Origin: an uncultured Gammaproteobacteria bacterium
GTDB taxonomy: Bacteria > Patescibacteriota > Microgenomatia > CAYSOG01
Direction: 5' to 3'
Length of the DNA stretch: 64,000 nucleotides
Assembly: GCA_964432675.1 (NCBI GenBank)
Contig: CAYSOG010000005.1
Span: forward strand, 910-64,909
How positions within the stretch are numbered: the stretch's first letter is position 1; each line of letters begins with the position of its first letter. The notes below the pieces were generated by a model. That model worked only from the letters and a program-made list of their open reading frames with translations. It searched no databases and was not told the DNA's origin. Positions 5,273 through 34,565 of the stretch are shown here, in pieces. Made by a program: the position numbers and the translations under genes.

Positions 5273-5322
5273 TAGTGCCTATTAAACCCACTGTTCCAAT
5301 TACTCAATAAGGTGCATATATT

Positions 5323-8227: not shown

Positions 8228-8233
8228 TATTAC

Positions 8234-11805: not shown

Positions 11806-11807
11806 TT

Positions 11808-13124: not shown

Positions 13125-14319
13125 AAATGTTCGTGTCGAAACGCAAGGCAACAAAATTTCCTTATTGGCCACCTGCACTATTCGTCATTTTGGCGACGAT
13201 GAAGTGTATATAACGTTTCCTAAAAAATACAAAACATTTATTAGGGCTGATGCCAGCCCATTTGCTGCAATGCTGCTTATCCCTTCGATGAAAAAAGGTG
13301 AAGACCTTATCATTGAAGGCACAATCTCCGAAAAACTGTATCACAATATGCAGCATATCATGAAAGTCATGCTTGGTTGGAAGGAATTAGGGCTAAAGCC
13401 CATCCGTATTATTGTCGACGGTACAACGCAAGATGCACAACAGGCAAATATTGAAGCTTCATTCTTTTCGGGTGGCGTGGATTCCTTTTATACCTTTTTT
13501 AAAAATAAGACAAGCAAGAAACAAAAATTGACACATATAATTCTTGTCCATGGCTTCGATATTGAGCTACGCAATCAAGAATTATGGCAAAAAACACGCA
13601 AACACGCAAAAACTCTCGCCCATGAGGAAAATATTTCCATTATTGATGTTTCATGCAATATATATCGTCTTATTACACCTTTTATATTATGGGAACATGC
13701 GTTCGGCGGCTGTATGGCGGCCATTGCTTTAGCATTACGGCAAAAGTTGCAAAAAATTTACCTTGCATCATCGTATCGATATGACCAACAATTTCCAGGA
13801 GGATCACATAGTGCAATTGACAAATATTGGAGCACCGAAAAACTTACATTTGTCCATCACGGTGGCGACGTAACGAGATTTGAAAAAGTCAAATATATAG
13901 CTAATTTCTCCCATGCATTAAAACATTTGCGTATTTGTAATGATACCCGCGATGGCACGTATAATTGTGGGGTGTGTGATAAGTGCGTTCGAACGATGAT
14001 CAGCCTTGCAATCGTTGGGAAACTGAACAATGCATCTACACTACCGAAAAAGTTAGACCTTGCTCTTGTTAAAAACCTCGCTATCCAACACGAATTTTCA
14101 GCAATATTCCAAAGAGAAAATTTGGCAGCATTACAACAAAACCATCCAAACCCCAAACTCGAAGAGGCAATCGAACAAAGCCTGAAAAAACTTTCAAATA
14201 ACCACCATAATGCCCTGCCTGACACCGTATTGAGTAAGTTAATTTATGCTGACAATGAATACAACCGGGGTCGGATATATGAACTTATTTCGTATCTTAG
14301 ATATAAGCTTTTTCTTTAA
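13114..14319 (+). CDS. PP-loop ATP pyrophosphatase superfamily protein with C-terminal Cys cluster (N-acetyl-sugar amidotransferase WbpG/WbuX-like or QueC-like)
   Basis: SGGVDS PP-loop motif at ~aa 119 and a C-x13-CGVCDKC cluster at ~aa 270-295. It overlaps the pyruvyl transferase gene by 11 bp. Confidence 0.45.
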   Translation: MRIRNVRVETQGNKISLLATCTIRHFGDDEVYITFPKKYKTFIRADASPFAAMLLIPSMKKGEDLIIEGTISEKLYHNMQHIMKVMLGWKELGLKPIRIIVDGTTQDAQQANIEASFFSGGVDSFYTFFKNKTSKKQKLTHIILVHGFDIELRNQELWQKTRKHAKTLAHEENISIIDVSCNIYRLITPFILWEHAFGGCMAAIALALRQKLQKIYLASSYRYDQQFPGGSHSAIDKYWSTEKLTFVHHGGDVTRFEKVKYIANFSHALKHLRICNDTRDGTYNCGVCDKCVRTMISLAIVGKLNNASTLPKKLDLALVKNLAIQHEFSAIFQRENLAALQQNHPNPKLEEAIEQSLKKLSNNHHNALPDTVLSKLIYADNEYNRGRIYELISYLRYKLFL

Positions 14320-15670
14320 AATACGAAAAGTATTTCCGCGCTAACTGATTAAAGCCAATTTCTTTTATAAGGAACAGGAAAAACAGAGCGGCCGTAAGCA
14401 ATTGTGCAAATAACCATCCAATACCAATGCCGGTAAGCCCTCGAGAAATAAATATGACGCTAGACCCAAGAAGTAATGAGCAACCAATAACATTACAAAT
14501 TAACAATAAACCAATTTTATGTCTAATTCGAAAAACAGCACTTGTCACTAATGCAATTGAGGCGAAAAATGATGAAACACCAAATAGCCGCAACAGCTCG
14601 AACGCTTCGGTTTCATAATTTTGGCCAAAGAAATGCAAAACAATATTGCCAAAAAAGTAAATAACAAAAACAGCAGGAATAAGTAATCCAAAAATAAGAC
14701 CAATTGATTTGGTCAGATGCGTTTGTAGCTCGCGGTTATCATACGAACCTTCGGCAAGAAGCGACTGTGTTACAGCAACAGGAATTATAAGGAGCAAATT
14801 CAATATCATGGCATCAATGTAATAATATGCCGCGGCTTTAGCATTAAGAAAATTCACTATCAAAAGCGGTAAAATTAATATTGGCAACTGATATAAAAAT
14901 CCAGCCACATAGTTTGCAATTGAGAATCGAGCCATCTGTGAAACAGCTGTCTTATTAAATGTAATCCGGAAAGAGTATTTGAATTTTATTGCTAATATAA
15001 CAATAGCGAAAAAGGAGCCGAATACTGTTGCCACAGCAACAGAAGTAAAAATACCGAATGCGCCAAATATAATCAAGAAAAAAGGCAAAACCAGTTTAAT
15101 AATACTGAGTGTTGTGTTTTTAAAAAGAACATTTTCCGCTGCTCGATATGCCATAAAAATGCCATCAATTATAAGGCTCCAGGTATAGGCAATGATGAAA
15201 ATAACAAACAAAATGCTATAGAAATAGTTGGTTTTGAGAAAAAGTAAGTGCGGTGAGAATGTCCGAATTCCCTGTATAAAAATAATGCAAGCAATACATG
15301 CTACTATACCTGTAACAACGAACGTTGAATTAATCATTTCATTACGTATGTGTGAGTTTGGGAGATAGCGAATAAGACTGATGTTTAGGCTTAATGTGCT
15401 AAAACCGCCGATTAAGCTCATAACCGAAATGAGAGTCGTTGCGATGCCAATGTCTTCTGGCTTTGCGATACGAGCCACTAGCATCCAAAACAGAAAACCA
15501 AATGCAGCTAAGACAAATGTACTCGACATAATATATATCGAATTTCGGAAAAGTAAATCTGATTTGAAATGATGGATGATAGTTTGTACTACTCGGTTTT
15601 GCATATTCATCGGCAGCAAGCTAGTGCGAGTATACACTATTAGCCTCTTTGGTGCATTAAGTAAAGCCAA
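14297..15670 (-). CDS. Polysaccharide biosynthesis protein, Wzx-like flippase (MOP superfamily)
   Basis: ~12-14 TM helices in a protein of typical Wzx size, inside the glycan locus. The start is uncertain; internal Met codons at ~15610 and ~15604 are alternatives. Confidence 0.55.
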   Translation of the reverse strand: MALLNAPKRLIVYTRTSLLPMNMQNRVVQTIIHHFKSDLLFRNSIYIMSSTFVLAAFGFLFWMLVARIAKPEDIGIATTLISVMSLIGGFSTLSLNISLIRYLPNSHIRNEMINSTFVVTGIVACIACIIFIQGIRTFSPHLLFLKTNYFYSILFVIFIIAYTWSLIIDGIFMAYRAAENVLFKNTTLSIIKLVLPFFLIIFGAFGIFTSVAVATVFGSFFAIVILAIKFKYSFRITFNKTAVSQMARFSIANYVAGFLYQLPILILPLLIVNFLNAKAAAYYYIDAMILNLLLIIPVAVTQSLLAEGSYDNRELQTHLTKSIGLIFGLLIPAVFVIYFFGNIVLHFFGQNYETEAFELLRLFGVSSFFASIALVTSAVFRIRHKIGLLLICNVIGCSLLLGSSVIFISRGLTGIGIGWLFAQLLTAALFFLFLIKEIGFNQLARKYFSYFKEKAYI

Positions 15671-17984: not shown

Positions 17985-19205
17985 CTAAAATATGCTTGGC
18001 CCTTTTGGTGTTCCTAATCCTGTTGGTCCATCATAACCATCATTGGCATGGCAAAGATAAGATCGTGCACAACTACCATTCGAACCTACTGTTATGTCGG
18101 TTAATGCTATGCCCCTTCCATAAAACAAAGCATTTACGAGCGTATGGGCTGGCATCTTATCACCCTGAGCGACAATACCGGCAACTAATGGCGCGGCTAA
18201 ACTGGTACCGCCTATGACAAGCCACCCCTTTTTACTACCAGCAACAGTCGAACTATAAATTGCCGCCCCAGTATGTGGGTCAGCGTCGGCCGCGATATCA
18301 GCAACTGATCTTTTGCTGCAACCTTCATCGTGTTGCCAAGCAGGCTTGCTTTCATAAGCGCTGCAGCCACTTCCTGTTCCAGCCCAAACTACCTCCGATT
18401 TATAACTGGTATTGCCAACAAGATGCAGTGTCGTACCACCAACAGCTGTAACATACTCTGATGCTGCCGGATACGACACACCATAACCATTATCTCCAGA
18501 ACTAAATGCTATAAACCTTCCTGGCAAATTAAAATGTTTATCATATGATCTTTCTGAAGTAGTTTCTTGGCCACCCCATGAATTTGAAATTATCTTCGCG
18601 CCTTTTTTCACCGCCGTATCAAAAGCGGCAAGCAAGCTTGTCATACTACTTGAACTTGCTTCTACCAACAGGATGTTGCAGTTCTCACAAAGGGCGTGCG
18701 CTACTTCGACATCGAGGGCTATTTCCATTGCCCAACCGCTATTTTTATTTGGTAAGTTGGTCCCACCTTTCTGATTTATTTTCTCAAGGCAAGGGTTATT
18801 AGGTGTCCCGGCACTAACTGGACAAGAGGCAAGTTTTGGCAGACCGAATGTATCACTATAGACATTAACATCTTGCAGAATAGTTGGATCATCGTAGGCA
18901 TCAACAATGGCAATGGTATTTTTTGATTGGCTAACACCATCAACGCTGTAAGCGCCACGAAATTGCGCAGGTCCATAGCCAGACGGAACATTAGTAACAT
19001 GGGGTAAACCATTTGGTTCTGTAAGGACCCGAGCATGACAGCGGACATGGCCTTTAGCCGATGAACCGCAAACTGCAGTATGCGATAAGCTTATATCGGA
19101 TATAGTTGCAGGATAACTAGTAAGGGCAAAAACAGAGGTTGGGAAAAATAAAGTAATACAAAGCAATGCAGCACAACATAAAAGTGTTTTCATAAAAGTC
19201 CTCAC
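17985..19205 (-). CDS. Secreted subtilase-superfamily peptidase, sedolisin-like (S53/S8), paralog of 2084..3319
   Basis: IAIVDAYDDP, FSSGDNGYG and IGGTSLAAPLVAG, about 60% identical to the left-flank paralog. Signal peptide present. Confidence 0.7.
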   Translation of the reverse strand: MRTFMKTLLCCAALLCITLFFPTSVFALTSYPATISDISLSHTAVCGSSAKGHVRCHARVLTEPNGLPHVTNVPSGYGPAQFRGAYSVDGVSQSKNTIAIVDAYDDPTILQDVNVYSDTFGLPKLASCPVSAGTPNNPCLEKINQKGGTNLPNKNSGWAMEIALDVEVAHALCENCNILLVEASSSSMTSLLAAFDTAVKKGAKIISNSWGGQETTSERSYDKHFNLPGRFIAFSSGDNGYGVSYPAASEYVTAVGGTTLHLVGNTSYKSEVVWAGTGSGCSAYESKPAWQHDEGCSKRSVADIAADADPHTGAAIYSSTVAGSKKGWLVIGGTSLAAPLVAGIVAQGDKMPAHTLVNALFYGRGIALTDITVGSNGSCARSYLCHANDGYDGPTGLGTPKGPSIF

Positions 19206-19341: not shown

Positions 19342-20601
19342 ATGATGCCGCTTCACGTTTGGATAAAGGAAAAATATTTACTCACCCTATTTATTTGTCT
19401 ATTCATTATTGTCAGAAGTATCTATTTTCCACTTTTTGCCGCCTTTTCTTCTGACCAAGCGAATTTTTCACTGCATGCATTAGATATCATGGCTTCGCAT
19501 AAATTCACCTTAGTTGGACCGGCAATTTCGTTTGCGCTCGATGGGAGAACAATATTTCAAGGGTCAATTGTCTATTACTTCACCCTTTTATTTTTACTAC
19601 TAGGACATTTGGACCCGATGGTTAGTTCATACCTTTTCATGATTTTCTGCGGATTTATGGTAATACCACTTTACTATGGTGCGAAAATGCTCATCAATAG
19701 CAGAGCCGCTTGGCTTATAACTACTATATATGTCTTTTTTCCTTTTTATATAGCCCACACCCGTTATTTATGGAATGCAAATTATCAGTTTGCCCTTTTG
19801 CCGATTGTTATCTTCCTAATGGGATTGTATAAGGTAAAGTCTAACGTCATTATCTTAGTATTGCTTGGAGGATTGTTAGGGTTACTGCTCCAGTTCCACT
19901 ATCAACTTGTTACCGTTCTTATAGGACTGGTTATTTACTATATAAAATTTGCCAGTCTGGGACTAAAAAGATTAGGCTTATTTTTTGGGGGATTTCTTTT
20001 AGGGCTTTCGCCAATGCTAGCGTTTGAAGTGCATAGCCATTTTTACAATAGCCAGACCATCGTATTCTTCCTCACACATGCAAAGAGCTTTGTTGGCCAG
20101 AAGTCTAATTCCTACTTTGGCACACACTACCTGCTAAGTGTGTCGCTTTTTGCTTTTTTGCTTATTATCTACTTCTTACGGCAACATGTAACTTATCGTC
20201 GGATAGCACTCGTTGGCGGAGTGCTTGGACTTTGGTCGCTTGCCTTAGTTGTCCAAAAACCAAACCATGCTGAAGGCATGATTGCTGGATGGAACTATCC
20301 AAGTGAGGCAAAAGTCCACCAGATTATTGTGGCTCAACATCTTAAGGACTTTAATGTTGTGAATTTGCCGTCAGATACGCTCGCTCAGGTCCAAAAATAC
20401 CTACTGCGCAAGGACAAAGTGAAAATTAACGAGAATAATTATAAGACTGAACACTATCTGTTTGTTATTAGCAAGGATGCAAATTACATGCAAAATCCTG
20501 CATACGAAGTAAACTCTTTTACTCCATCAAGCCTTGTAAACCAATGGCCAATTAATAACGCTTTTACCCTCTATTTGTTGGAAAGGAAACCTCAAGATTA
20601 A
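19342..20601 (+). CDS. Polytopic membrane protein (possible GT-C / ArnT-PMT-like glycosyltransferase)
   Basis: ~10 TM helices in the first 300 aa, then a ~110-aa C-terminal soluble domain. No firm motif. Confidence 0.4.
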   Translation: MMPLHVWIKEKYLLTLFICLFIIVRSIYFPLFAAFSSDQANFSLHALDIMASHKFTLVGPAISFALDGRTIFQGSIVYYFTLLFLLLGHLDPMVSSYLFMIFCGFMVIPLYYGAKMLINSRAAWLITTIYVFFPFYIAHTRYLWNANYQFALLPIVIFLMGLYKVKSNVIILVLLGGLLGLLLQFHYQLVTVLIGLVIYYIKFASLGLKRLGLFFGGFLLGLSPMLAFEVHSHFYNSQTIVFFLTHAKSFVGQKSNSYFGTHYLLSVSLFAFLLIIYFLRQHVTYRRIALVGGVLGLWSLALVVQKPNHAEGMIAGWNYPSEAKVHQIIVAQHLKDFNVVNLPSDTLAQVQKYLLRKDKVKINENNYKTEHYLFVISKDANYMQNPAYEVNSFTPSSLVNQWPINNAFTLYLLERKPQD

Positions 20602-20602
20602 T

Positions 20603-20758
20603 TTACTGTGCCTGGAAGCGGATGAGCTTACATGATTTCTCAAGGACTGTTGCTGGTTGGGCCAAGGTGAAGGTATTGAGCTGTAACTTCTTGTTGCCAG
20701 GGCTGGTGGGAGTAGGACGGGAACTTGGCCTTGGGGTTGGGGTGGCAGATCCCCTGCC
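20603..20758. repeat. ~156-bp segment near-identical to 23178..23333 (3' coding ends of two paralogous genes)
   Basis: Read directly from the sequence: ttactg[t/c]gcctggaagcggatgagcttacatgatttctcaagga ... aaggtattgagctgtaacttcttgttgccagggctggtgggagtaggacgggaacttggccttggggttggggtggcaga. There is a ~19-bp divergent patch in the middle. Confidence 0.85.
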
Positions 20759-21874
20759 AAATAGGTTGCCAAACCAATTAGCTATGATAGCAAAGATATT
20801 TTGGTTACCTGTCGTGCTTCCTAAAACTAAGCTGTTTGAAACCGCTTGTTTAGGAACACAGCTAAACTGAATCCAGGCCCGGTAAATCTTACCTTTTTCA
20901 AGTTGCGGAATTTGGGTTTGCCATTGTGATTGGTATCGTACAAGCGTTGGTGTATTGACTGTTGTTGTCGGGTTCACCGGCCCTGATTGGCCAATGATGG
21001 TGGCATTGTCACTGTCCCCGGCACCGAGGAAGAAGCTCATATTACTGACTTTTGCTTTCTGGGTATTTGACCCTTCAACTTTGGCAAATGCTGTAAATGT
21101 TGTTTGCTTTCCAGGTATGATATCGGTATTATCCATACCGTCACACGTACAAAGCGTTTCATCAAATGGCGTCGGCGATGGACTAGGTGTAGGTGTGGGC
21201 GTTGGGGTTGGGGTGGGCGTAGGTTGGCAGACATTTTGGCCTGCCCCATTTGGCAAACATTTTGGACATCCTACCGCTTGGACACACTGACTATCGTTTT
21301 GGCATATCATACCGCAAGCCGGCGGTGGTGTTGGTGTTGGTGTAGGTGTCGGCGTTGGTGTTGGACTTGGTGTTGGTGGTACCTGACAAATAGAGTGTGC
21401 AATATCATTTGGATTTGGCAAACATGCCGTACATTGGCCGGCTAGGGAACAGTCATTATTGGAATTGCAACTTGAACCACAAGCAGGTGGAGGCGTTGGT
21501 GTCGGGGTTGGGGTCGGTGTTACCGGGTTGGTAATTATCACTGACCCACCGTTTTGGCATGTTAGTGTTAATGTACCATCAGGATTTTGGGTTATTGTTA
21601 CAGCACCATCGGCACCTGCTGCTGCCGTACCGGCTTGCGCTGCTTGTTCAAGCGTAGCTCCCGAAAGTAATGCATTTTTGACCGCCGTGACGATATTAAT
21701 CCAGGCGGGCATGTTTGGCACCGTATTAATATTCGGTATATAGTCGCCAAATCCACCATAACTCAAGTTTCCATTTAAAACTTCCCGCTGTGCATAAGCA
21801 ACATTAGTTAATCGTGTAGTACTCACGATTCCAAGACTTAAAAGTAATATTGCTAGAACTAACTTTATTCTCAT
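20603..21874 (-). CDS. Secreted modular protein: signal peptide, Pro-Thr linkers, repeated 6-Cys modules, conserved beta-domain and conserved C-terminal tail
   Basis: Signal peptide MRIKLVLAILLLSLGIV. Modules of the form ACGSSCNSNNDCSLAGQCTACLPN are separated by PTPTPT linkers. The C-terminal 50 aa are nearly identical to 23178..24494. Confidence 0.7.
   Translation of the reverse strand: MRIKLVLAILLLSLGIVSTTRLTNVAYAQREVLNGNLSYGGFGDYIPNINTVPNMPAWINIVTAVKNALLSGATLEQAAQAGTAAAGADGAVTITQNPDGTLTLTCQNGGSVIITNPVTPTPTPTPTPPPACGSSCNSNNDCSLAGQCTACLPNPNDIAHSICQVPPTPSPTPTPTPTPTPTPPPACGMICQNDSQCVQAVGCPKCLPNGAGQNVCQPTPTPTPTPTPTPSPSPTPFDETLCTCDGMDNTDIIPGKQTTFTAFAKVEGSNTQKAKVSNMSFFLGAGDSDNATIIGQSGPVNPTTTVNTPTLVRYQSQWQTQIPQLEKGKIYRAWIQFSCVPKQAVSNSLVLGSTTGNQNIFAIIANWFGNLFGRGSATPTPRPSSRPTPTSPGNKKLQLNTFTLAQPATVLEKSCKLIRFQAQ
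21176..21376. repeat. Imperfect tandem GGTGTT/GGGGTT-type repeats encoding Pro-Thr linkers (coding microsatellite)
   Basis: ggtgtaggtgtgggcgttggggttggggtgggcgtaggt and ggtggtgttggtgttggtgtaggtgtcggcgttggtgttgg. Similar tracts occur at ~21490-21530 and ~23756-23815. Confidence 0.7.
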
Positions 21875-23130
21875 GATTTAATAAGCGATTGAAATTCTTG
21901 GTTTGCTGCCAGTCCTTCAAAAAATTTGTACTTGACATCATTCCTGGCGGTTATCTTTATACCTGGATTTTCCTCAATGGCCTGCTTAACAAATTGTAAG
22001 GCAAGCGTCTGGTTACCGAGCTTTGAAAGCGTTTTTGCAAATTCATAGCTGAGCCTTGCTTTCATGCCTGTTTTGTCATTTTGCGTTAAAAGCGTATTAT
22101 CATTGTCTATCCTTTTTAGGGCGTAGGCAAAGTAACCAGCCGCTTCCTTATCATAGCCACCGGCACGAACGACGATACCGATTAAGTAGTAATTTTCGGA
22201 AATCTTCGGATTTAGGGCAATCGCTTTTTTTAAGGCATTCACTCCTTCATAGGTGTGCCCATTGATCGCCATGAGGTATCCATACTGTGCTGCAGCTGGA
22301 GCAAAGGAGGGGTCTGCCGCTACAGCTTGCTTAGCAAACCCAATTGCCTTATCCATGGAAACAATTTTTGTCTGTTCTATTGTCGCCATGTTTGTGAAAG
22401 CTTCTGATTTAAGTTGCGCCGGTATAGTCGGCTGTTGCGTGGCCTGCTGGAAATACGTGAACGCTTCAGTAACATTACCCTTTCTTACACTTTGGCGGGC
22501 TTTTGCTAAAACGGCCTGGGGATTTTTAGGATCTAAAGCATAGGCTTTGTCGTATGCTTGGAAGGCACTTTGCTGTTGGCCTAGAAACTCTAGGACGTGG
22601 CCTTTATGGAACCAAGCTTCGGGATTTTTACCGTCAACCGCTATAGCTTTATTGTAATAACCCAGCGCTTCGGTGTATTTGCCGGCTGTTTCATTAATAT
22701 ACCCTGCTGCCAAAAGGACATTGACATCATTTGGATATTTGGCTAAAGCTTGATCGATGTATTTTTTTGCACTATTAAATGCACTTGTCTCATCACCACT
22801 TAAATTACCTTTTTCTGCTATTGTGGTAATTAATCCAGCAAACAGGCTTGGGTCTTGCTGCATACCAAGTGCTTGCGTGAACTTCTTTTCTGCACTAGTG
22901 TAATTACCACCGTTATAATCTGCAGCCGCGCTTGCCCCAAGCGTTAAAGCGGCTGATTGGTTATTCGGTTTGTTAAATTTCAAGACCAAAAGGGTAATAA
23001 CAACCAATACGGCTCCAATGATAAGACATACCAGTAGCACATTCCCCTTCGGATTATTATTGTCAGATTGTTGGTTGGAAGATAATCCTTGAAGTAGTAG
23101 ATTTTTTTCAGCCTTTATGTCATTGCGCAT
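21871..23130 (-). CDS. Membrane-anchored tetratricopeptide-repeat (TPR) protein
   Basis: N-terminal TM helix, then multiple TPR-like repeats with the recurring pattern A..Y..A...P....A. It overlaps the upstream gene's stop by 4 bp. Confidence 0.75.
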   Translation of the reverse strand: MRNDIKAEKNLLLQGLSSNQQSDNNNPKGNVLLVCLIIGAVLVVITLLVLKFNKPNNQSAALTLGASAAADYNGGNYTSAEKKFTQALGMQQDPSLFAGLITTIAEKGNLSGDETSAFNSAKKYIDQALAKYPNDVNVLLAAGYINETAGKYTEALGYYNKAIAVDGKNPEAWFHKGHVLEFLGQQQSAFQAYDKAYALDPKNPQAVLAKARQSVRKGNVTEAFTYFQQATQQPTIPAQLKSEAFTNMATIEQTKIVSMDKAIGFAKQAVAADPSFAPAAAQYGYLMAINGHTYEGVNALKKAIALNPKISENYYLIGIVVRAGGYDKEAAGYFAYALKRIDNDNTLLTQNDKTGMKARLSYEFAKTLSKLGNQTLALQFVKQAIEENPGIKITARNDVKYKFFEGLAANQEFQSLIKS

Positions 23131-23177
23131 ATTTTAATACTATCACTCTACCTTTTAAGACTGCAACAATGGCATAT

Positions 23178-23333
23178 TTACTGCGCCTGGAAGCGGATGA
23201 GCTTACATGATTTCTCAAGGATGAGGGAGGGTTGGCCCAAGGTGAAGGTATTGAGCTGTAACTTCTTGTTGCCAGGGCTGGTGGGAGTAGGACGGGAACT
23301 TGGCCTTGGGGTTGGGGTGGCAGACCCCCTGCC
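23178..23333. repeat. Partner copy of the near-identical 3' coding segment (see 20603..20758)
   Basis: Direct comparison of the two segments. Confidence 0.85.
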
Positions 23334-24494
23334 GATCAGACGGCTAAACCAGCTGCCAATGATATCCCAGATACTCGAGTTTTGGCTAGACGATCCTAAG
23401 ACTAAGCTGTTGACCGTACTGGCTGGACCCTTTTGGGCACAGTCAATTTGAACCCAGGCCCGGTAGATCTTACCCTTTTCCAGTTGGGGAATTTGCTGCT
23501 GCCAAGTTGATTGGTAACGGACAAGGTTGGGATTGTTGGCAATGACTTGGGACTGAACTGGTCCTGATTGGCCAATGATGGTGGCATTGTCACTGTCCCC
23601 GGCACCGAGGAAGAAACGGATGTCGTTCACTTGGGCTTTGGAAGTATCAGCCCCTTCTACCTTGGCAAAGGCCGTAAAGGTTGTTTGTTGGCCTGGGGTA
23701 ATATCAGTCGTATCCATACCATCACACTTACACATATCAGGGCTAAAGCCTGGTGTTGGGGAAGGAGTTGGTGGGGATGTTGGTGGTGGGGTTGGCGGTG
23801 GGGTTGGAGGAACCTGGCAAGTATTAATGCCACCACCGTTTGGCAGACATGCTGTGCACTGGCCAGCTAATGAACAGTCGTTGTTATTGTTACATTGACT
23901 ATTGCAAGCTGGAGGCGGCGACGGTGATGGGGTCGCTACGGGACAACTGCAGCTAGTGCTATCTTGGCAAGATGGATTTCGGCATTGGCCCTGGAAACAA
24001 AATCCGGAAGCACAATCCGAATTCCCTTGGCATGTGGCATTACAGGCTAAATTTGGTTGCGGCGTTGGTGTTGGTGGAACTTGGCACGTATTTTGGCCGC
24101 CGCCGTTTGGTAAGCAGGCGGAACATTGGCCAGCTAATGAACAGTCGTTGTTATTGTTACATTGGCTGTTACAGGCCGGCGTGGTTGTCGGTGCAGGTGT
24201 GGGGTTCTGGCAGGAATCAACCTTACAGTTAATCCACCCATTGCTACATTGGAAATGATAAATGCCGACGTTACCGGTGGCGGGCTCGCACTGGTCATCT
24301 ACCGGTACACAAATTTGGTCTGGACGACACTGGTTACCACAAACCTCAGGAACAGCATTACTCACAGCAATAGCTTGCGGTGCTGCGGCAAACCACACGA
24401 TCATCGATACTAACACTGAGAAAAAGGCAATCATAATGCGGCTTGTCTTACTAACGCCGCGCCAAACTCGTTCACCTTTTTTTATAAAGGACAT
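23178..24494 (-). CDS. Secreted modular Cys-rich / Pro-Thr-linker protein, paralog of 20603..21874
   Basis: It has the same 6-Cys modules (ACNSQCNNNNDCSLAGQCSACLPNGGGQNTCQVPPTP), the same beta-domain (CDGMD..FTAFAKVEG..FFLGAGDSDNATIIGQSGPV) and the identical C-terminal tail. The N-terminal region differs. An alternative start at the signal-peptide Met is ~24434. Confidence 0.7.
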   Translation of the reverse strand: MSFIKKGERVWRGVSKTSRIMIAFFSVLVSMIVWFAAAPQAIAVSNAVPEVCGNQCRPDQICVPVDDQCEPATGNVGIYHFQCSNGWINCKVDSCQNPTPAPTTTPACNSQCNNNNDCSLAGQCSACLPNGGGQNTCQVPPTPTPQPNLACNATCQGNSDCASGFCFQGQCRNPSCQDSTSCSCPVATPSPSPPPACNSQCNNNNDCSLAGQCTACLPNGGGINTCQVPPTPPPTPPPTSPPTPSPTPGFSPDMCKCDGMDTTDITPGQQTTFTAFAKVEGADTSKAQVNDIRFFLGAGDSDNATIIGQSGPVQSQVIANNPNLVRYQSTWQQQIPQLEKGKIYRAWVQIDCAQKGPASTVNSLVLGSSSQNSSIWDIIGSWFSRLIGRGSATPTPRPSSRPTPTSPGNKKLQLNTFTLGQPSLILEKSCKLIRFQAQ

Positions 24495-24495
24495 A

Positions 24496-25731
24496 TTACC
24501 CTGTCCCTTTCAATAAATATAGTAAATAAAGCGTATAAGCGCTATCGGACGTTAAGATATAATGTTCTGTTCCAGCCCCCATCGCAATCGGCCTAGCCAT
24601 AAATATCGTCCCGCCTTCGCCATAAATTTTCTTTTGCTGCTTGCCATCATAAAACGTGTTCATGAAAAATGCCATGAGTTTTTTCCCTGTATCATTATAA
24701 GACTTGTCATTTGTTACCTGCGCCATCTCGAAGTAACTCTCAATACATGGCTGGATTTCTACCGGGTTTATGAATCCGTCGTAATCCTTCGTTAAGTCGT
24801 ATGTTGCCATCGATTGTTTCACCGCCTGTAAAATTTGGGGGTTATTTTGCCGGCCAATGTCGATGCCGGCCAGCCAATACCAGCAACCAAACTGCGGAAA
24901 ATGAGGGCCGGTTACATAGTAAAGCGGTACTTGTTGCTTAAAGGTGTTTTGAGCCAAATCGAAGCGCTTGATCGCTTCCTGCATGTATTGTGTGTTGTGG
25001 GTGATCTCAGACACGAGCGCCAACTCCCGTGCCTCAATAGTAAGCAGCATATATTGGGTATTGGGCGGTGTTTTAGTAAGCAAGTCGGCTTCCTGATTTA
25101 AAAACGTCAAAATAGCCGGGTCTTTGGTCTCGCTATACAACCGAACCGGTTGGTCTAATATCCAAAGACACTGATTTCGGTTTGCAGCACACCAAGTATT
25201 AAGCGATGCGAAATCGGCTTTCGCGAGCTGCAAGTATTTGGGATTATTTTGCATTTTATAACCTGCTAAATAACCTAACATTGTCCAACTATTCGTAGTC
25301 TGAAATACTTGCTGGCCGTTGAATGGACACACGCTTTGACCATTTTTAGGAATGCACTGATTATTGTACCGTGAAATGTAATTATAAAACCCATCTTTGC
25401 GCTGCATACTCTGCAAGTAAAGCAACGAGGTAAGCGTGACCGCTGTAACTGCTGAAGGATCATTTTTGGCAATTTGGCCGCCAAAACCGCCTTCCCTCGC
25501 TGCTGCTGCTCCACCGGCCGTTCCCTGCTTAGAAGCAGCATTTTTACCTAAACGGAGCAATAGCAACAGCAATGCCGTCACAATGACTGCAACAATACCT
25601 ATCGGCAACCAATATTTTCGAAAAAATGAAACTTTCTGTTGTATACGCGGTTGACTAGGAGATTCTAAAGGCGGTTGCGGTGTTTGATCCTCTGGTGTGA
25701 TTGGTGGTTGAGATGTAGATTTGTTATCCAT
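24496..25731 (-). CDS. Type II membrane protein with Pro-rich cytoplasmic N-terminus and large extracytoplasmic domain (function unknown)
   Basis: Pro/Gln-rich N-terminus, a single TM helix (IGIVAVIVTALLLLLL) and a ~330-aa extracellular domain with several Cys and Trp. No firm motif. Confidence 0.45.
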   Translation of the reverse strand: MDNKSTSQPPITPEDQTPQPPLESPSQPRIQQKVSFFRKYWLPIGIVAVIVTALLLLLLRLGKNAASKQGTAGGAAAAREGGFGGQIAKNDPSAVTAVTLTSLLYLQSMQRKDGFYNYISRYNNQCIPKNGQSVCPFNGQQVFQTTNSWTMLGYLAGYKMQNNPKYLQLAKADFASLNTWCAANRNQCLWILDQPVRLYSETKDPAILTFLNQEADLLTKTPPNTQYMLLTIEARELALVSEITHNTQYMQEAIKRFDLAQNTFKQQVPLYYVTGPHFPQFGCWYWLAGIDIGRQNNPQILQAVKQSMATYDLTKDYDGFINPVEIQPCIESYFEMAQVTNDKSYNDTGKKLMAFFMNTFYDGKQQKKIYGEGGTIFMARPIAMGAGTEHYILTSDSAYTLYLLYLLKGTG

Positions 25732-25751
25732 TGCAGCGTCATAACCGTTTG

Positions 25752-26345
25752 TTATTTATTGGTATCGGCAAGCTTGAGATAAAAGTAGAGTGCGGTTCCA
25801 GCAAGCATAAAGCCTAAGCCGCCGAAGGCCAGAAGTAAGGTTGTTTCAGCACTACCCGTTTTTGGCAATTTAGCCGGAGGTGTGGGTGTTGGGGCAATCG
25901 TCCCACCGCCTTGGACTTGGCAAAGCAAACTAAAGGTTCCGGTGGCACCAGTATTGCCGCATGAATTAACCGCTGCGACATCACATTTGTAGGTTTTCCC
26001 CTGCGTTACAGGAAAAGTTACCTTGGTTGTAGCAGTCGGTTCAGATTCACTTTTCACAACTTTCCCGCTTTCAACTTCAGTTACGGTTAAATTGTATGAT
26101 GAAGCGTTTGCCACAGCCCCCCAACTACAACTAGCGTTCACAAACGAACATTGGGCGCCATTACAGCTTGGGAACTCAACCAAGACACTCGAAACTTGGT
26201 CTGGAACTGGACAAGCCTGGGCTTGTGCTTGCACCTGCGGAACAAGAGCACTGGGCTTCGGTAATGCCGAAGGCGCCAAGACCAAAAGGCCAAAACCCAG
26301 AATGGTAACGAATAGTGGCAGCAATCGTATTTTCATGCTATTCAT
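25752..26345 (-). CDS. Cell-wall-anchored surface protein with LPXTG sorting signal (sortase substrate)
   Basis: Signal peptide, then a Cys-containing Ig/FN3-like region, then a C-terminal LPKTG (at 25854..25868) followed by the hydrophobic stretch LLLAFGGLGFMLAGTALYFYL and the basic tail KLADTNK. Confidence 0.65.
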   Translation of the reverse strand: MNSMKIRLLPLFVTILGFGLLVLAPSALPKPSALVPQVQAQAQACPVPDQVSSVLVEFPSCNGAQCSFVNASCSWGAVANASSYNLTVTEVESGKVVKSESEPTATTKVTFPVTQGKTYKCDVAAVNSCGNTGATGTFSLLCQVQGGGTIAPTPTPPAKLPKTGSAETTLLLAFGGLGFMLAGTALYFYLKLADTNK

Positions 26346-26550: not shown

Positions 26551-27591
26551 TTAACTACTGCGAACGTGGAGCATCTGCTGAAACATCCTCGACAATGACC
26601 ACCCCCGCGGTTCAGGCATGGCTGCCATACCGATACTGGGTACGGGTTCATTAGCTGGATACGATTGCCGAAAGACATCAAAGACATTAACCGCTGTTGA
26701 TAGCAAGTCCTCTTTCAAGCAAAGCTCATCGCAGAGCAACATACTGCGAAAACCATGGTCATACAACCAGGCAAGCTCAAGGAAATCTGAACAGGAAGGC
26801 ACTGGAGCATGCACAACTGATAGCAGTATCCTTGAACCGACACATGCTTCGGGATCTTTACTTATAATAAGCTCGTGGGCCGCTAAAATTTCATGCGGTT
26901 TATCGATTTCAACGTATAGGTCACCACGGGCTACTACTAAGACAAGGTTGGATTGCTTGACGAATTCGTTTTGGACGTATGCCAGACCTTTAGGGTTTTC
27001 AATTTTTAGCATTACCTCTTGATCGCGACCAACAACGTCAAGAAACTCTTCAACGTCAGCCTGCCGCTCAACAAATGAAAGGTAATACCTTGTAAAACCG
27101 GCCTTTTTCACCTTTGCAATTTTTTCATATTCTACATCGGTAAAAAGTGGGCCATTGACAACCAGGCTTGGGTCACGAATACAGATCGATTCCCCAGCCT
27201 TGATATTGTAGTACGGTGGCTCAGTCAAGTGTAACTCATAGCCATCGTCCGACAACTCGGTTAAAAGCGCATTATCTTCGCCAGCTTTCAAAAGGACTGG
27301 TGTTGGTGTTACCACACTAATTGGATGGTTTAGGCGAAGCTTTGGGTATTCTTTACCACCGCGCTCTACAACCTCGACCTCAGCAATGCGTAGTTGCCTG
27401 CCCTTAACGTCGAAGTAAAGCGGCACGGTTGGCGCCGTATTAGCGATAATGGCTAGCTCTGCATCGAGGTCATCGAGAGCCATCATGGCAGAGTTTATCC
27501 TAATACCGGCAAGCCTTGGATCTTTTGCAAACCGTTCAAAATGCGGAAAACTTGGCCACAATGTGACATGGAGTTTTGCAGTATTCGCCAC
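26551..27591 (-). CDS. Pyruvate-kinase-like barrel domain protein (lacks the PK C-terminal domain)
   Basis: DVKGRQLRI (compare PK DTKGPEIR) and VVARGDLYVEIDKPHE (compare the PK signature MVARGDLGVEIP). At 346 aa it is shorter than bona fide PK. Confidence 0.45.
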   Translation of the reverse strand: MANTAKLHVTLWPSFPHFERFAKDPRLAGIRINSAMMALDDLDAELAIIANTAPTVPLYFDVKGRQLRIAEVEVVERGGKEYPKLRLNHPISVVTPTPVLLKAGEDNALLTELSDDGYELHLTEPPYYNIKAGESICIRDPSLVVNGPLFTDVEYEKIAKVKKAGFTRYYLSFVERQADVEEFLDVVGRDQEVMLKIENPKGLAYVQNEFVKQSNLVLVVARGDLYVEIDKPHEILAAHELIISKDPEACVGSRILLSVVHAPVPSCSDFLELAWLYDHGFRSMLLCDELCLKEDLLSTAVNVFDVFRQSYPANEPVPSIGMAAMPEPRGWSLSRMFQQMLHVRSS

Positions 27592-28671: not shown

Positions 28672-29682
28672 CTAAAGCCCTGGAATTGGTTTCATGTCAG
28701 AATGCACGCGACCAAACGCTTGTTGTCTGACTTGTTGGATATCTTCCCAGAGGTCTACCTTTTCCCAAGTTGGTCTGTCACGAACATCATGTTGGATAAG
28801 TTGCGCGATAAAGCTTCTGACCGGGTCTGGTACCTCCTTAGGCAAAGACCTTGCTTGGACCATCTCTGGCTTACCACTTAAGGCAAATAGCATGGTCATA
28901 CCCAAACTGTAAAAGTCAGATTCTGGCAAAAGCGGTTTGCCTGCAATTTCCTCAGGAGGTGCGTAAATTTCGGTGTACCCTTTGGACTTCGAACCTGCCG
29001 AAGGCTTAATAATCGAAAGCCCGTAGTCTACAACAACCACCATGTGGCTTTCATGCTGGATGATAATGTTTTGCGGTTTAATATCTCCGTGGACAACACC
29101 ATGGAAATGAAGAAATTTCAGTGCATTAAGGACGCGCTGAGCAATCCAGCAAACATCTTCTGCATCAAGCCGCCCAACTTTCTCAATAATTTCGGCAAGG
29201 GTAAAGCCTGGAATATAGCTCATGACCAATGCCAGGCTACCGTCAGGCAAACGCAGTATATTGCGCATGGCTGGAACGGAGTAATGCCGCAAGTCCCACA
29301 CTGCCTTGGCTTCTTCAATTAAGATCTGCTCATGGAGTGGGGAAATTTCGGAACAATGCTTGATGCATACCGGCTCGTTGAGCAAGATTTGCTCACCGCG
29401 GTAGGTAATGCCGAAGCCACCCTCTGCGATTTTATCCAAAATGCGGTATTCACCAATAATCTTGCCATCAAGCTGCCGCGAATCCATATCATAGGCTGCA
29501 CGTTTCTTTGGGTCGGATAATTTATCGTATGCTTCATTAAGGAGAACCGCGATCCGATCAGTATCATCAACTATCCCATTTGGGAAATGGGCTTTCATTA
29601 AAGCCCGGTATGCCCCGGTAATTACTTCCTGTTGAGCCCTTGGGTGAACTTGCAAAACTTCATAAGGGTTTTGGTCAGGCAT
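28672..29682 (-). CDS. Hanks-type Ser/Thr protein kinase (non-RD: HGD catalytic loop)
   Basis: GEGGFG Gly-loop, VCIKHC (VAIK Lys), HGDIKPQNIII, DYGLS (DFG variant) and YAPPE (APE). Confidence 0.8.
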   Translation of the reverse strand: MPDQNPYEVLQVHPRAQQEVITGAYRALMKAHFPNGIVDDTDRIAVLLNEAYDKLSDPKKRAAYDMDSRQLDGKIIGEYRILDKIAEGGFGITYRGEQILLNEPVCIKHCSEISPLHEQILIEEAKAVWDLRHYSVPAMRNILRLPDGSLALVMSYIPGFTLAEIIEKVGRLDAEDVCWIAQRVLNALKFLHFHGVVHGDIKPQNIIIQHESHMVVVVDYGLSIIKPSAGSKSKGYTEIYAPPEEIAGKPLLPESDFYSLGMTMLFALSGKPEMVQARSLPKEVPDPVRSFIAQLIQHDVRDRPTWEKVDLWEDIQQVRQQAFGRVHSDMKPIPGL

Positions 29683-34436: not shown

Positions 34437-34565
34437 GTTTTTAGTATAGCAAAGCTATTGGATTTATGATGCTACACCCAGTTATCTGCCATGACATTTC
34501 TTGAAATGTGAGTCAAATAGGGAACCCCGCAGAAATCAACTTACTAGGTCAATTACGTAAGCCGT

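What the first reader, a model, noticed from the sequence alone, without database searches (positions are those of the whole stretch)
20603..24494. Two paralogous modular secreted proteins built from shuffled 6-Cys modules and Pro-Thr linkers, with near-identical 3' ends, flanking a TPR protein
Both genes encode a signal peptide followed by variable numbers and kinds of ~30-aa 6-Cys modules (A-C-x-S-x-C-N-x-N-N-D-C-S-L-A-G-Q-C-x-A-C-L-P-N...) separated by PT linkers. A conserved ~100-aa beta-rich domain follows (CDGMD..FTAFAKVEG..FFLGAGDSDNATIIGQSGPV..KGKIYRAW), then an almost identical 50-aa tail (RGSATPTPRPSSRPTPTSPGNKKLQLNTFTL..LEKSCKLIRFQAQ). The rest of each gene has diverged strongly, yet the last ~155 bp are nearly identical at the nucleotide level. 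That points to recent gene conversion or recombination through a conserved cassette handle, or to a strongly constrained C-terminal sorting or anchoring element. The module architecture looks like a fast-evolving surface or host-interaction protein family, which would be relevant if the organism is an episymbiont. A membrane-anchored TPR protein sits between the two genes and is a candidate partner or chaperone. I do not recognise the tail as any known sorting signal (not LPXTG, PEP-CTERM or T9SS).
Basis: seen in the sequence. Interest (0 to 1): 0.8.

Follow-up and report, generated by a model that had tools for sequence, protein, structure and literature searches.

The report
Knottin-array surface proteins of Patescibacteria
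Two neighbouring genes encode members of an unannotated family of secreted, disulfide-rich proteins from ultra-small (CPR/Patescibacteria) bacteria; their near-identical 3' ends are explained by ordinary gene conversion, and the conserved 'tail' most likely supplies the last two strands of the C-terminal domain rather than acting as a sorting signal.

Summary
Two paralogs (20603-21874 and 23178-24494, minus strand) flank a membrane-anchored TPR gene and share exact 88-, 53- and 37-nt runs against about 76% background identity.

They belong to an unannotated family of about 326 clusters at 50% identity, seen only in Patescibacteria/Microgenomates, with no Pfam or NCBIfam hit. Its members combine:
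- a signal peptide and a hypervariable head;
- PT-linked mini-domains that are knottins, closest to potato carboxypeptidase inhibitor, plus one Dumpy-DPY-like module;
- a conserved extreme-C-terminal Ig-like beta-sandwich.

The 'tail' (LQLxTF..P..C..IKF) is conserved family-wide. It carries one of four invariant cysteines, and AlphaFold models it confidently as a hairpin after a disordered loop. It is therefore most likely part of the fold, not a sorting signal.

The nucleotide identity is patchy recent gene conversion. The perfectly identical PT linker is unconserved in the family, synonymous sites are identical only inside the tracts, and there is no RNA structure and no reverse transcriptase.

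Each paralog has its own upstream membrane-anchored partner (TPR for geneA, a 411-aa protein for geneB; SurA_N-like elsewhere), plus a small LPXTG fn3-like protein. This cassette recurs in at least 10 loci. The likely function is a chaperone-assisted, wall-associated surface complex. That function is inferred, not shown.

The parts
25752..26345 (-). Small Cys-rich fn3-like protein with an LPXTG cell-wall anchor (LPKTG + TM + basic tail). It is the first gene of the cassette.
   Evidence: TIGR01167 at 21.9 bits (cut-off 15.9) and PF00746. Homologues lie next to the partner and family genes in L005-L009, L011, L018-L020, L022, L025 and L026.
24496..25731 (-). 411-aa N-terminally membrane-anchored protein, the dedicated upstream partner of geneB. 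It may be an alpha/alpha-toroid, but the GH88/GH127 hits are weak.
   Evidence: It has 12 homologues. In all four contexts examined (L026-L029) the next gene downstream is a family member, A2-HMM E 1e-13 to 1e-50. The only Pfam hit is a weak GH88 match.
23178..24494 (-). geneB, a 438-aa family member (the extra copy, paired with the 411-aa partner).
   Evidence: E 2.6e-73 to the family profile.
24084..24173 (-). geneB knottin module 1 (CNSQCNNNNDCSLAGQCSACLPNGGGQNTC).
23943..24044 (-). geneB 8-Cys module of a second type (C..C..C..C..CRNPSC..C.C). It is Dumpy-DPY-like and is shared with LPXTG/TM-anchored proteins P0012-P0015.
   Evidence: 1OIG E 7e-4; PF21164 hits 5 of 8 copies, but not the window copy itself.
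23817..23906 (-). geneB knottin module 2, an internal duplicate of module 1 (77% nt identity over 140 nt).
   Evidence: (repeat family D3).
23439..23732 (-). geneB Ig-like beta-sandwich core (CxCDG to the mid-domain Cys).
23262..23375 (-). geneB inserted loop: a conserved aromatic/amphipathic segment (SIWDIIGSWFSRLIG) followed by the PT linker RGSATPTPRPSSRPTPTSPGNKK.
   Evidence: (pLDDT below 50).
23181..23261 (-). geneB tail LQLNTFTLGQPSLILEKSCKLIRFQAQ, modelled as the terminal beta-hairpin of the C-terminal domain.
21871..23130 (-). 419-aa N-terminally membrane-anchored TPR protein, the dedicated upstream partner of geneA (4-nt overlap with geneA).
   Evidence: Many TPR Pfam models and the NF047558 TPR end domain. 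Orthologues lie directly upstream of family genes in L006-L008, L011, L020, L022 and L023.
20603..21874 (-). geneA, a 423-aa family member (the syntenic copy, paired with TPR).
   Evidence: E 1.9e-77.
21386..21481 (-). geneA knottin module 1 (CGSSCNSNNDCSLAGQCTACLPNPNDIAHSIC).
21227..21316 (-). geneA knottin module 2 (CGMICQNDSQCVQAVGCPKCLPNGAGQNVC).
20858..21151 (-). geneA Ig-like beta-sandwich core.
20687..20800 (-). geneA inserted loop: the aromatic/amphipathic segment NIFAIIANWFGNLFG followed by the PT linker.
20606..20686 (-). geneA tail LQLNTFTLAQPATVLEKSCKLIRFQAQ, modelled as the terminal beta-hairpin.
   Evidence: AF2 pLDDT 88-95 with strands at residues 176-180 and 184-188 of the 190-aa construct. 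DCA recovers the hairpin pair L178-R186.
20662..20749 (.). Gene-conversion tract 1: 88 nt identical to 23237-23324. It covers the PT linker and the first part of the tail.
20610..20646 (.). Gene-conversion tract 2: 37 nt identical to 23185-23221 (the end of the tail).
20982..21034 (.). Gene-conversion tract 3: 53 nt identical to 23563-23615 (FFLGAGDSDNATIIGQSG, inside the sandwich).

Best explanation
GeneA and geneB belong to an unannotated, Patescibacteria/Microgenomates-restricted family of Sec-exported, disulfide-rich surface proteins. Each protein has three regions: a hypervariable head; an array of mini-domains (PCI-type knottins and a DPY-like module) strung on Pro-Thr linkers; and a conserved Ig-like beta-sandwich at the extreme C-terminus.

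The 'tail' is not a sorting signal. It supplies the last two beta-strands of that sandwich. It is separated from the core by an inserted disordered loop (a conserved aromatic segment plus a PT linker of variable length), and is probably locked to the core by a disulfide, since the domain has four invariant Cys, one of them in the tail.

The family gene is almost always immediately preceded, often with a 4-nt overlap, by an N-terminally membrane-anchored helical-repeat protein of one of three interchangeable classes: TPR, SurA_N-like, or the '411-aa' class. It is usually accompanied by a small LPXTG-anchored Cys-rich fn3-like protein.

Inferred mechanism: the membrane-anchored partner acts as a dedicated post-translocation holdase or assembly factor, working like PpiD/YfgM at the Sec translocon. 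The conserved C-terminal domain docks the protein at the cell surface, possibly onto the wall-anchored fn3 protein, in the way Csc/WxL clusters are proposed to work. The variable knottin array is displayed outward.

The window holds two complete partner+effector pairs in tandem. Their 3' halves have been homogenised by gene conversion, most recently in three short tracts (88, 53 and 37 nt), and this produces the near-identical 3' ends.

Shown: the family, its architecture, the conserved tail, the synteny, the conversion signature and the knottin fold. Inferred: tail docking and the disulfide, the chaperone role, surface docking, and any host-interaction role.
For: Family:
- No Pfam or NCBIfam hit.
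- The exhaustive profile search found 326 representatives at E<=1e-3 and 160 at E<=1e-30.
- The named sources are Patescibacteria and Ca. Levybacteria.
- In 153 of 157 members the domain ends within 9 residues of the C-terminus. 130 of 134 have exactly four Cys. The distance from the mid-domain Cys to the tail Cys varies from 60 to 105 aa.

Tail as part of the fold:
- The motif is conserved in essentially all 150 representatives.
- C9, C11, C106 and C182 are invariant.
- In the AF2 model the sandwich has pLDDT above 90, the loop below 50, and the tail 88-95 as a two-strand hairpin.
- DCA recovers the hairpin pair, and tail-core pairs rank 13th and 17th of 16,299.

Conversion:
- Same-amino-acid codons are identical about 50% of the time outside the tracts, but 13/13, 15/15, 10/11 and 11/12 inside them.
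- The exact runs are 88, 53 and 37 nt.
- The 23-aa PT linker is 100% nt-identical between the paralogs yet unconserved across the family.
- GeneA and geneB are 73% identical to each other and at most 44% to any other member, despite having unrelated partners.

Partners:
- TPR orthologues, SurA_N_3-like proteins (above the gathering score in L001 and L005) and 411-like proteins each lie directly upstream of family genes. The LPXTG-fn3 gene is adjacent in at least 10 loci.

Knottin:
- The module profile's best PDB matches are 4CPA_I, 1H20 and 7EQZ_I at E~2e-3, with all six Cys aligned.
- The AF2 module model has pLDDT 91.

Analogies: PMC9643414 (YfgM-PpiD) and PMC1534035 (Csc clusters).
Against: - I could not inspect model coordinates. 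Docking of the tail on the sandwich and the Cys pairing are therefore inferred from pLDDT and invariance, not seen.
- DCA shows no overall enrichment of tail-core pairs (8 of the top 40, about the share expected by chance).
- No experiment or expression data exist.
- The chaperone and docking roles rest on synteny and analogy only.
- L001 and L004 lack the LPXTG gene, and L004 lacks a recognisable partner.
- Knottin membership is below Pfam's threshold (at most about 13-20 bits against 25).
- The 73% identity between geneA and geneB could reflect a lineage-specific duplication with partner replacement rather than long-term concerted evolution.
- The N-terminal heads gave no phylogenetic signal that could decide between those two histories.
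Confidence: 0.62

Rival explanations
1. The conserved tail is a new C-terminal sorting or anchoring signal. A dedicated machinery (for example the nearby S8 peptidases, or the upstream partner acting as a receptor) recognises it, and may cleave it, to attach the protein to the envelope.
For: The tail is conserved family-wide, always lies within 9 residues of the C-terminus, and is tethered by a flexible linker. S8 subtilases lie near the cassette in the window (17985..19205) and in L001. Many members end in ...F-x-F.
Against: There is no hydrophobic TM segment or basic cluster, and no hit to any NCBIfam or Pfam sorting-domain model. AF2 gives the tail pLDDT 88-95 as strands, whereas an unbound signal peptide would be expected to be disordered. 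The invariant tail Cys completes an even set of four. S8 genes are not conserved neighbours. No conserved candidate sorting enzyme lies in the cassette.
Confidence: 0.12
2. The tethered C-terminal hairpin is a donor element that inserts in trans, either into another copy of the family domain (polymerisation) or into the co-encoded LPXTG fn3-like protein (anchoring). The membrane-anchored partner would act as the chaperone that holds it before hand-over.
For: A long flexible tether precedes a two-strand element. A chaperone-like partner is obligatory and a wall-anchored fn3 protein is co-encoded. Weak Foldseek similarities include donor-strand proteins (TapA/TasA, FlaF/FlaG), all at E above 1e-2.
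Against: The monomer AF2 model places the hairpin confidently without a partner. No multimer modelling was possible. The Foldseek hits are not significant. An intramolecular disulfide is the simpler reading of four invariant Cys.
Confidence: 0.1
3. The identical 3' ends are recombination handles of a programmed variation system that shuffles module cassettes between expression sites.
For: Module number and type differ between the paralogs and across the family. The tracts of perfect identity end sharply. A second genome (L024) also carries two family genes within 3.2 kb.
Against: There are only two copies in 64 kb, and both are complete genes with their own partner. There are no silent cassettes. 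No recombinase, invertase or reverse transcriptase lies in the window. The differences between copies are not adenine-specific. The tracts lie at the conserved end, not flanking the variable modules. Exact-tail DNA was absent from 185,579 reference genomes, and no close relative was found in the JGI metagenome collection.
Confidence: 0.06
4. The 3' identity is an assembly artefact, from a collapsed or chimeric repeat in a metagenome-assembled contig.
For: The sequence is a MAG contig. An independent Logan assembly of run SRR9179560 breaks inside geneB at a repeated module and so does not confirm the 3' ends.
Against: The identical runs are at most 88 nt, shorter than typical reads. Each is embedded in diverged, in-frame, full-length genes whose flanks are unique. 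The geneA-TPR adjacency matches synteny in other genomes, and the 411-geneB adjacency matches L026-L029. The Logan contig is 100% identical over 24135-26410, confirming the LPXTG-411-geneB 5' arrangement.
Confidence: 0.04

Closest known systems
Potato/tomato metallocarboxypeptidase inhibitor (PCI; Pfam PF02977; PDB 4CPA_I, 1H20, 7EQZ_I), the founding knottin
   Same: The Cys framework is the same: six Cys with C-x3-C-x5-C-x5(6)-C-x2-C-xn-C. Residues are shared around the Cys positions (P-x-C-N-x-x-C, D-C-x-G-A, x-A-C). These are the best matches in the whole PDB to the module profile (E~2e-3). The predicted fold matches a cystine-knot peptide.
   Different: The modules score below Pfam's gathering score. 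They are internal and tandem, joined by PT linkers, and lack the free C-terminal tail that PCI inserts into carboxypeptidase. They are bacterial: the 2007 KNOTTIN database lists plant, animal, fungal and viral families only (PMC2238874). The knotted disulfide connectivity was not verified.
Csc cell-surface clusters / WxL-domain proteins of Lactobacillales (Siezen et al. 2006, PMC1534035)
   Same: The operon encodes only exported proteins: a membrane-anchored component, proteins with variable N-terminal parts and a conserved C-terminal domain of about 130-190 aa, and a small LPXTG-anchored protein proposed to anchor the others (searches compared).
   Different: There is no WxL motif or Pfam WxL/DUF916 hit. 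The membrane protein is anchored N-terminally and is TPR, SurA_N or toroid-like, not DUF916. The C-terminal domain is a disulfide-bonded Ig-like sandwich. The phylum is different. No experimental link to the cell wall exists.
PpiD / YfgM, the Sec-translocon-associated periplasmic chaperone pair of E. coli (PMC9643414)
   Same: Both have an N-terminal TM segment and a large extracytoplasmic domain. PpiD carries a SurA-like N-terminal domain and YfgM carries TPRs. These are the same two domain types that alternate at the partner position here.
   Different: Here the partner is gene-specific and translationally coupled to one client. Only one of the types is present per cassette. No PPIase domain was detected. 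A third, unrelated partner class (411 aa) occupies the same slot. Interaction with Sec was not tested.
T9SS C-terminal domain (CTD) and sortase/exosortase-type C-terminal signals
   Same: A conserved element at the extreme C-terminus of otherwise variable secreted proteins. The T9SS CTD is also a small beta-sandwich.
   Different: No model hit. There is no TM/basic tripartite signal. The organisms are monoderm-type, as they use LPXTG proteins. No cognate sorting enzyme lies in the cassette.
Drosophila Dumpy DPY module (PF21164; PDB 1OIG)
   Same: The 8-Cys second module type (..C-x5-C-x4-C-x4-C-R-N-P..) matches the DPY module (E 7e-4 to 1OIG; PF21164 hits 5 of 8 copies, best E 3e-5).
   Different: The window's own copy does not reach E<=1 against PF21164. 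The bacterial modules have two extra Cys on each side. The similarity is weak and may be convergent.

Membership tests
Knottin / carboxypeptidase-A inhibitor family (PF02977) | Six Cys with the PCI spacing C-x3-C-x5-C-x5-C-x2-C-x6-C | tested here: met
   The window modules have spacing 3,5,5,2,n. Across the family there are 73 modules in 47 of 163 proteins, mostly 3,5,6,2,n. All six Cys align to PCI.
Knottin / carboxypeptidase-A inhibitor family (PF02977) | Score at or above Pfam's gathering threshold (25 bits) | tested here: not met
   The window module scores 13.3 bits, E 0.075. 13 of 55 modules hit at E<1, the best at 0.0026.
Knottin / carboxypeptidase-A inhibitor family (PF02977) | Cystine-knot fold (I-IV, II-V, III-VI, with one disulfide threading the ring) | tested here: inconclusive
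Knottin / carboxypeptidase-A inhibitor family (PF02977) | Free C-terminal tail after the last Cys that enters the carboxypeptidase active site | tested here: not met
   Every module is internal and is followed by a PT linker (sequence).
Sortase (LPXTG) / exosortase-type C-terminal sorting signal, as a reading of the tail | Signature motif followed by a hydrophobic TM segment and a basic cluster | tested here: not met
   The tail LQLNTFTLAQPATVLEKSCKLIRFQAQ has no TM segment. There is no NCBIfam or Pfam hit. The neighbouring 197-aa protein does meet this feature (TIGR01167).
T9SS C-terminal sorting domain | Match to CTD models, plus a diderm host with Por/T9SS genes | tested here: not met
   No model hit. 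The window shows LPXTG-type envelope proteins and no T9SS genes.
WxL / Csc surface-complex cluster | C-terminal WxL domain with two Trp-x-Leu motifs, plus a DUF916 CscA | tested here: not met
   No Pfam hit at E<=0.1. The family alignment has one invariant Trp and no WxL pair.
WxL / Csc surface-complex cluster | Operon of exported proteins only: a membrane-anchored protein, proteins with a conserved C-terminal domain, and a small LPXTG protein | tested here: met
   The cassette is seen in at least 10 loci. This is analogy only.
Diversity-generating retroelement target | A nearby reverse transcriptase, and a template repeat differing from the variable repeat at adenines only | tested here: not met
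   No RT among the 47 window ORFs of at least 150 aa that were scanned. The differences between the copies are not A-specific.
PpiD/YfgM-type translocon-associated chaperones, as a reading of the partner proteins | N-terminal TM anchor plus an extracytoplasmic SurA_N-like or TPR domain | tested here: met
   The window protein matches TPR models. SurA_N_3 scores 31.2 and 49.4 bits against a 27.2 cut-off in L001 and L005. TM segments are visible in the sequences.
PpiD/YfgM-type translocon-associated chaperones, as a reading of the partner proteins | Physical association with SecYEG and a chaperone effect on exported clients | not testable with these tools
   This needs crosslinking or pull-down experiments.

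The most novel reading that the evidence does not exclude
The family is the structural subunit of a previously unknown surface appendage of monoderm CPR bacteria. In this reading the flexible-tether C-terminal hairpin is handed over in trans, by donor-strand complementation locked with a disulfide, either to the next subunit or to the LPXTG-anchored fn3 protein. Three interchangeable classes of membrane-anchored chaperone (TPR, SurA_N, toroid) would prime the subunit. The resulting wall-anchored fibre would display arrays of bacterial knottins that bind or inhibit host-cell surface proteins or proteases during episymbiosis.
Probability: 0.08. Interest if true: 0.85.

Novelty: new variant of a known kind. 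Interest (0 to 1): 0.5.

Why it matters
Patescibacteria (CPR) make up a large share of bacterial diversity and are thought to live attached to other microbes, yet the surface molecules behind attachment are mostly unknown. This work defines a sizeable family of about 326 clusters at 50% identity that no domain database annotates. It has three notable features.
- It contains tandem knottin mini-domains. The knottin scaffold is catalogued from eukaryotes and viruses and is prized for its stability and for protease or receptor binding.
- It sits in a conserved cassette with a dedicated membrane-anchored chaperone-like partner of three interchangeable classes.
- It is accompanied by a wall-anchored fn3 protein.
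Together these give concrete, testable candidates for CPR cell-surface display and host contact, and a natural example of client-specific extracytoplasmic chaperones in monoderm bacteria. The feature that first caught the eye, the identical 3' ends, is ordinary gene conversion between tandem paralogs.

Tried and rejected
- DGR target: rejected. There is no reverse transcriptase in the window, and the differences between copies are not adenine-specific.
- RNA element in the conserved 3' ends: rejected. The fold z-scores are +1.9 and +0.9, less stable than shuffles, and Rfam finds only one tRNA in the window.
- Promoter/terminator scan of the operon: uninformative. Counts equal the shuffled expectation.
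- Exact tail DNA in 185,579 reference genomes: no match.
- Close relatives of geneA's C-terminus in JGI metagenomes: none.
- The search for related loci with the broad alignment A2: failed because no conserved 7-10-mer exists. A narrower alignment, A3, worked.
- Look-up of geneB's exact product: not on record. GeneA's exact sequence is not in the collection.
- Module profile against the 5.8-billion-protein index: the first query was too short, then only 18 candidates and no hit. The distribution of the knottin module outside this family therefore remains unknown.
- AFDB fold library: unavailable.
- DCA for tail-core contacts: suggestive pairs but no enrichment, so inconclusive.
- N-terminal heads as a phylogenetic marker to separate duplication from concerted evolution: no homologues, so inconclusive.
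- S8 peptidase as a conserved cassette member: not supported.
- Literature searches for CPR cysteine-rich surface proteins or bacterial knottins: nothing relevant.

Full report
OBSERVATION. GeneA is 20603..21874 (-), 423 aa. A 419-aa TPR protein lies at 21871..23130 (-), and its stop overlaps geneA's start by 4 nt. GeneB is 23178..24494 (-), 438 aa. BLASTP aligns the two proteins from the first Cys module to the end (56% identity over 331 columns, E 3e-112). The C-terminal 190 residues are 73-74% identical.

At the DNA level the alignable 644 nt are 75.8% identical. They contain exact runs of 88 nt (20662-20749 = 23237-23324), 37 nt (20610-20646 = 23185-23221) and 53 nt (20982-21034 = 23563-23615). 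At this background identity an 88-nt run is expected about 5e-9 times. Identity stops 5 nt after the stop codon. The two terminal tracts are separated by a 15-nt patch holding 8 of the ~10 mismatches in the last ~157 nt. Only two copies of the tail exist in the 64 kb.

THE FAMILY. Neither protein hits any Pfam or NCBIfam model, even at E 0.1. A first homology search recovered ten distant relatives (28-40% identity), one of them labelled 'Patescibacteria group bacterium'. All share the same C-terminal plan:
- CxCDG at the start of a beta-rich domain;
- an aromatic or amphipathic segment (consensus FFxxIxxFxxxLFG);
- a Pro/Thr/Ser-rich linker with no sequence conservation;
- a terminal motif LQLxTFxPaxv..C.fIKFxF.

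A profile of this region, run against 1.84 billion representative proteins, found 326 representatives at E<=1e-3, 280 at 1e-10 and 160 at 1e-30. In 153 of 157 members held locally the match ends within 9 residues of the C-terminus. 130 of 134 have exactly four Cys in the domain. The distance from the mid-domain Cys to the tail Cys ranges from 60 to 105 residues. Genome records carrying members are Patescibacteria MAGs and Ca. Levybacteria (Microgenomates). Three records titled 'uncultured Gammaproteobacteria' carry the same cassette and are probably mislabelled bins. The family is real, sizeable, unannotated and, as far as seen, restricted to this lineage. Literature searches found no description of it.

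THE TAIL. Four columns of the C-terminal alignment are invariant Cys: two in CxCDG, one at the end of the core, and one in the tail.

AlphaFold2 with the 11-sequence alignment gives a seven-strand sandwich (residues 9-108, pLDDT above 90). Residues 113-162, which cover the amphipathic segment and the PT linker, are disordered (pLDDT below 50). The last ~20 residues return at pLDDT 88-95 as two strands, 176-180 and 184-188. A free terminal peptide would not normally be modelled with such confidence.

The simplest reading is that the tail supplies the last two strands of the domain, tethered by an inserted loop and fixed by a disulfide. I could not inspect coordinates, so docking and Cys pairing are inferred.

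A mean-field DCA on 152 diverse members recovers sensible intra-sandwich pairings and the tail hairpin pair L178-R186. It places tail-core pairs I97-Q188 and A31-L184 at ranks 13 and 17 of 16,299. However, tail-core pairs are not enriched overall (8 of the top 40), so this is weak support.

WHY THE DNA IS IDENTICAL. Among codons that encode the same amino acid in both genes, only about half are identical outside the tracts (5/12, 4/9, 4/8, 6/11). Inside the tracts the figures are 13/13, 15/15, 10/11 and 11/12.

The longest tract covers the 23-residue PT linker RGSATPTPRPSSRPTPTSPGNKK. This stretch has no counterpart in any other family member, so selection on the protein cannot explain its perfect nucleotide identity.

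The 3' ends do not fold into a stable RNA (z = +1.9 and +0.9). No reverse transcriptase, recombinase or further copy is present in the window. The differences between the copies are not adenine-specific.

The signature is that of short, recent gene-conversion tracts between tandem paralogs. On a longer timescale, geneA and geneB are each other's closest relatives (73%, against at most 44% to any other member) although they sit behind unrelated partner genes. GeneB is no closer to other members that share its partner type (27-34%). This suggests either homogenisation of the 3' halves or a lineage-specific duplication with partner replacement. The N-terminal heads have no homologues and cannot decide between these.

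An assembly artefact is unlikely. The tracts are at most 88 nt, they are embedded in diverged full-length genes with unique flanks, and both gene-partner adjacencies match synteny elsewhere. An independent Logan contig (SRR9179560) is 100% identical to 24135-26410. It breaks at geneB's internally repeated module, so it confirms the 5' arrangement but not the 3' ends.

THE CASSETTE. In other genomes the family gene is immediately preceded, often with a 4-nt overlap, by an N-terminally membrane-anchored protein.
- In L006, L007, L008, L011, L020, L022 and L023 this is an orthologue of the window's TPR protein (34-38% identity).
- In L001, L005, L009 and L018/19 it is a ~300-320-aa protein. In L001, L005 and L009 this protein matches SurA-like N-terminal domains (above the gathering score in L001 and L005). 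The L018/19 protein has no Pfam hit and is only weakly similar to the L005 partner (E 4e-6).
- The 411-aa protein upstream of geneB (24496..25731) has 12 homologues. In all four contexts examined (L026-L029) the next gene downstream is a family member (E 1e-13 to 1e-50).

Three unrelated classes of membrane-anchored partner, two of them recognisably helical-repeat or chaperone-like, therefore occupy the same slot. The window contains two complete partner+effector pairs: 411+geneB and TPR+geneA.

A small Cys-rich fn3-like protein with an LPXTG anchor (window 25752..26345; TIGR01167 above cut-off) is adjacent to the pair in L005-L009, L011, L018-L020, L022, L025 and L026. No sortase is in the window. 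The surroundings are an envelope-polysaccharide cluster, two S8 peptidases and SecA.

THE MODULES. The '6-Cys modules' have the consensus PACNxxCxxxxDCxGAxDGCTxCxPxxxxxxCQ. There are 73 copies in 47 of the 163 sequences examined (162 fetched proteins plus geneA) under a strict pattern, and 74 of 126 full-length members have at least one under a relaxed pattern.

A profile of 55 modules has as its best matches in the entire PDB the potato and tomato metallocarboxypeptidase inhibitors 7EQZ_I, 4CPA_I and 1H20 (E 1.6-2.1e-3). The alignment is full-length, with all six Cys and several flanking residues aligned. Engineered cystine-knot peptides come next. Pfam PF02977 is the most frequent sub-threshold hit (13 of 55, best E 0.0026, below the 25-bit cut-off).

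GeneB's third module (23943-24044) is of a different, 8-Cys type. It is shared with LPXTG/TM-anchored proteins P0012-P0015 and is closest to the Drosophila Dumpy DPY module (1OIG E 7e-4; PF21164 hits 5 of 8 copies).

MECHANISM (inferred). The steps below are ordered from best to least supported.
1. The proteins are exported by Sec. This rests on the visible signal peptides.
2. The upstream membrane-anchored partner acts as a client-specific holdase or assembly factor at the outer face of the membrane while the many disulfides form. This rests on translational coupling, on the recurrence of TPR and SurA_N domains, and on analogy with E. coli YfgM (TPR) and PpiD (SurA-like), which are TM-anchored and act at SecYEG (PMC9643414).
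3. The C-terminal sandwich closes by docking its tethered hairpin.
4. The conserved C-terminal domain retains the protein at the surface, possibly on the wall-anchored fn3 protein. This follows the proposal for Csc clusters, in which proteins with variable N-termini and conserved C-terminal WxL domains are co-encoded with a membrane-anchored protein and a very small LPXTG protein (PMC1534035).
5. The hypervariable head and knottin array are displayed outward, for binding or for protease inhibition.

Steps 2, 4 and 5 rest on synteny and analogy only.

VERDICT. Gene conversion: yes. A strongly constrained C-terminal element: yes, but as part of a fold rather than a sorting signal. The TPR as partner: yes, and this extends to a three-class partner system plus an LPXTG protein. 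A programmed cassette handle: no. The eye-catching 3' identity is ordinary. The family behind it is a new, unannotated variant of the modular, operon-encoded surface-protein theme, and its bacterial knottin arrays are unusual. Interest 0.5.

Noticed in passing
window 2084..3319 (-) and 17985..19205 (-): Two paralogous secreted S8 subtilases (phmmer E 3.7e-126 between them), one of them two genes from the cassette. An S8 gene also lies near the family gene in L001. S8 is not a conserved neighbour elsewhere.
   Followed up: partly
window 4166..15670: An envelope-polysaccharide biosynthesis cluster: GT2, three GT4, a polysaccharide deacetylase, a DUF2206 membrane protein, a pyruvyl transferase and a flippase-like Polysacc_synt protein.
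   Followed up: no
window 28672..29682 (-): An unusual fusion of an N-terminal DnaJ (J) domain with a Ser/Thr protein kinase domain in one 336-aa ORF.
   Followed up: no
window 26551..27591 (-): A 346-aa ORF that matches only the barrel domain of pyruvate kinase, weakly (PF00224 33.8 bits; far below the TIGR01064 cut-off). It may be a truncated or divergent PK-like protein.
   Followed up: no
window 23794..23933 vs 24061..24200: An internal 140-nt direct repeat (77% identity) inside geneB, a duplicated knottin module plus linker. A 30-nt exact repeat within it is where an independent Logan assembly contig ends.
   Followed up: yes
window 19342..20601 (+): A 419-aa polytopic membrane protein with no Pfam or NCBIfam hit. 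It is convergent with geneA, and its stop codon lies 2 nt from geneA's stop.
   Followed up: no
L008, L009, L011 (genome contigs records CAZXFJ010000053.1, CAYHUY010000011.1, CAYIRD010000027.1): MAGs titled 'uncultured Gammaproteobacteria' carry the same LPXTG-partner-family cassette as Patescibacteria/Levybacteria genomes. Their taxonomic labels are probably wrong.
   Followed up: no
L029 5027..5689 and 6276..6995; L027 715..1128: Disulfide-handling genes lie close to family genes in other genomes: a secreted thioredoxin-like CPAC protein, DsbD_TM and DsbB. This fits an oxidative folding requirement.
   Followed up: no
L024 37..1227 and 2375..3235: Another genome carries two family genes within 3.2 kb, so tandem paralogs are not unique to this window. 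The second gene is cut by the contig end, so its tail could not be compared.
   Followed up: partly
window 32658..35177 (-): A C39-like peptidase ORF (203 aa) lies next to an ABC-transporter ATPase-containing ORF (592 aa), which may be a bacteriocin-type export pair.
   Followed up: no
proteins P0012-P0015 (hits): The 8-Cys 'CRNPSC' module of geneB also occurs in tandem, on PT linkers, in otherwise unrelated proteins that end in LPXTG-like or TM anchors. The mini-domains are therefore shared between differently anchored surface proteins.
   Followed up: partly
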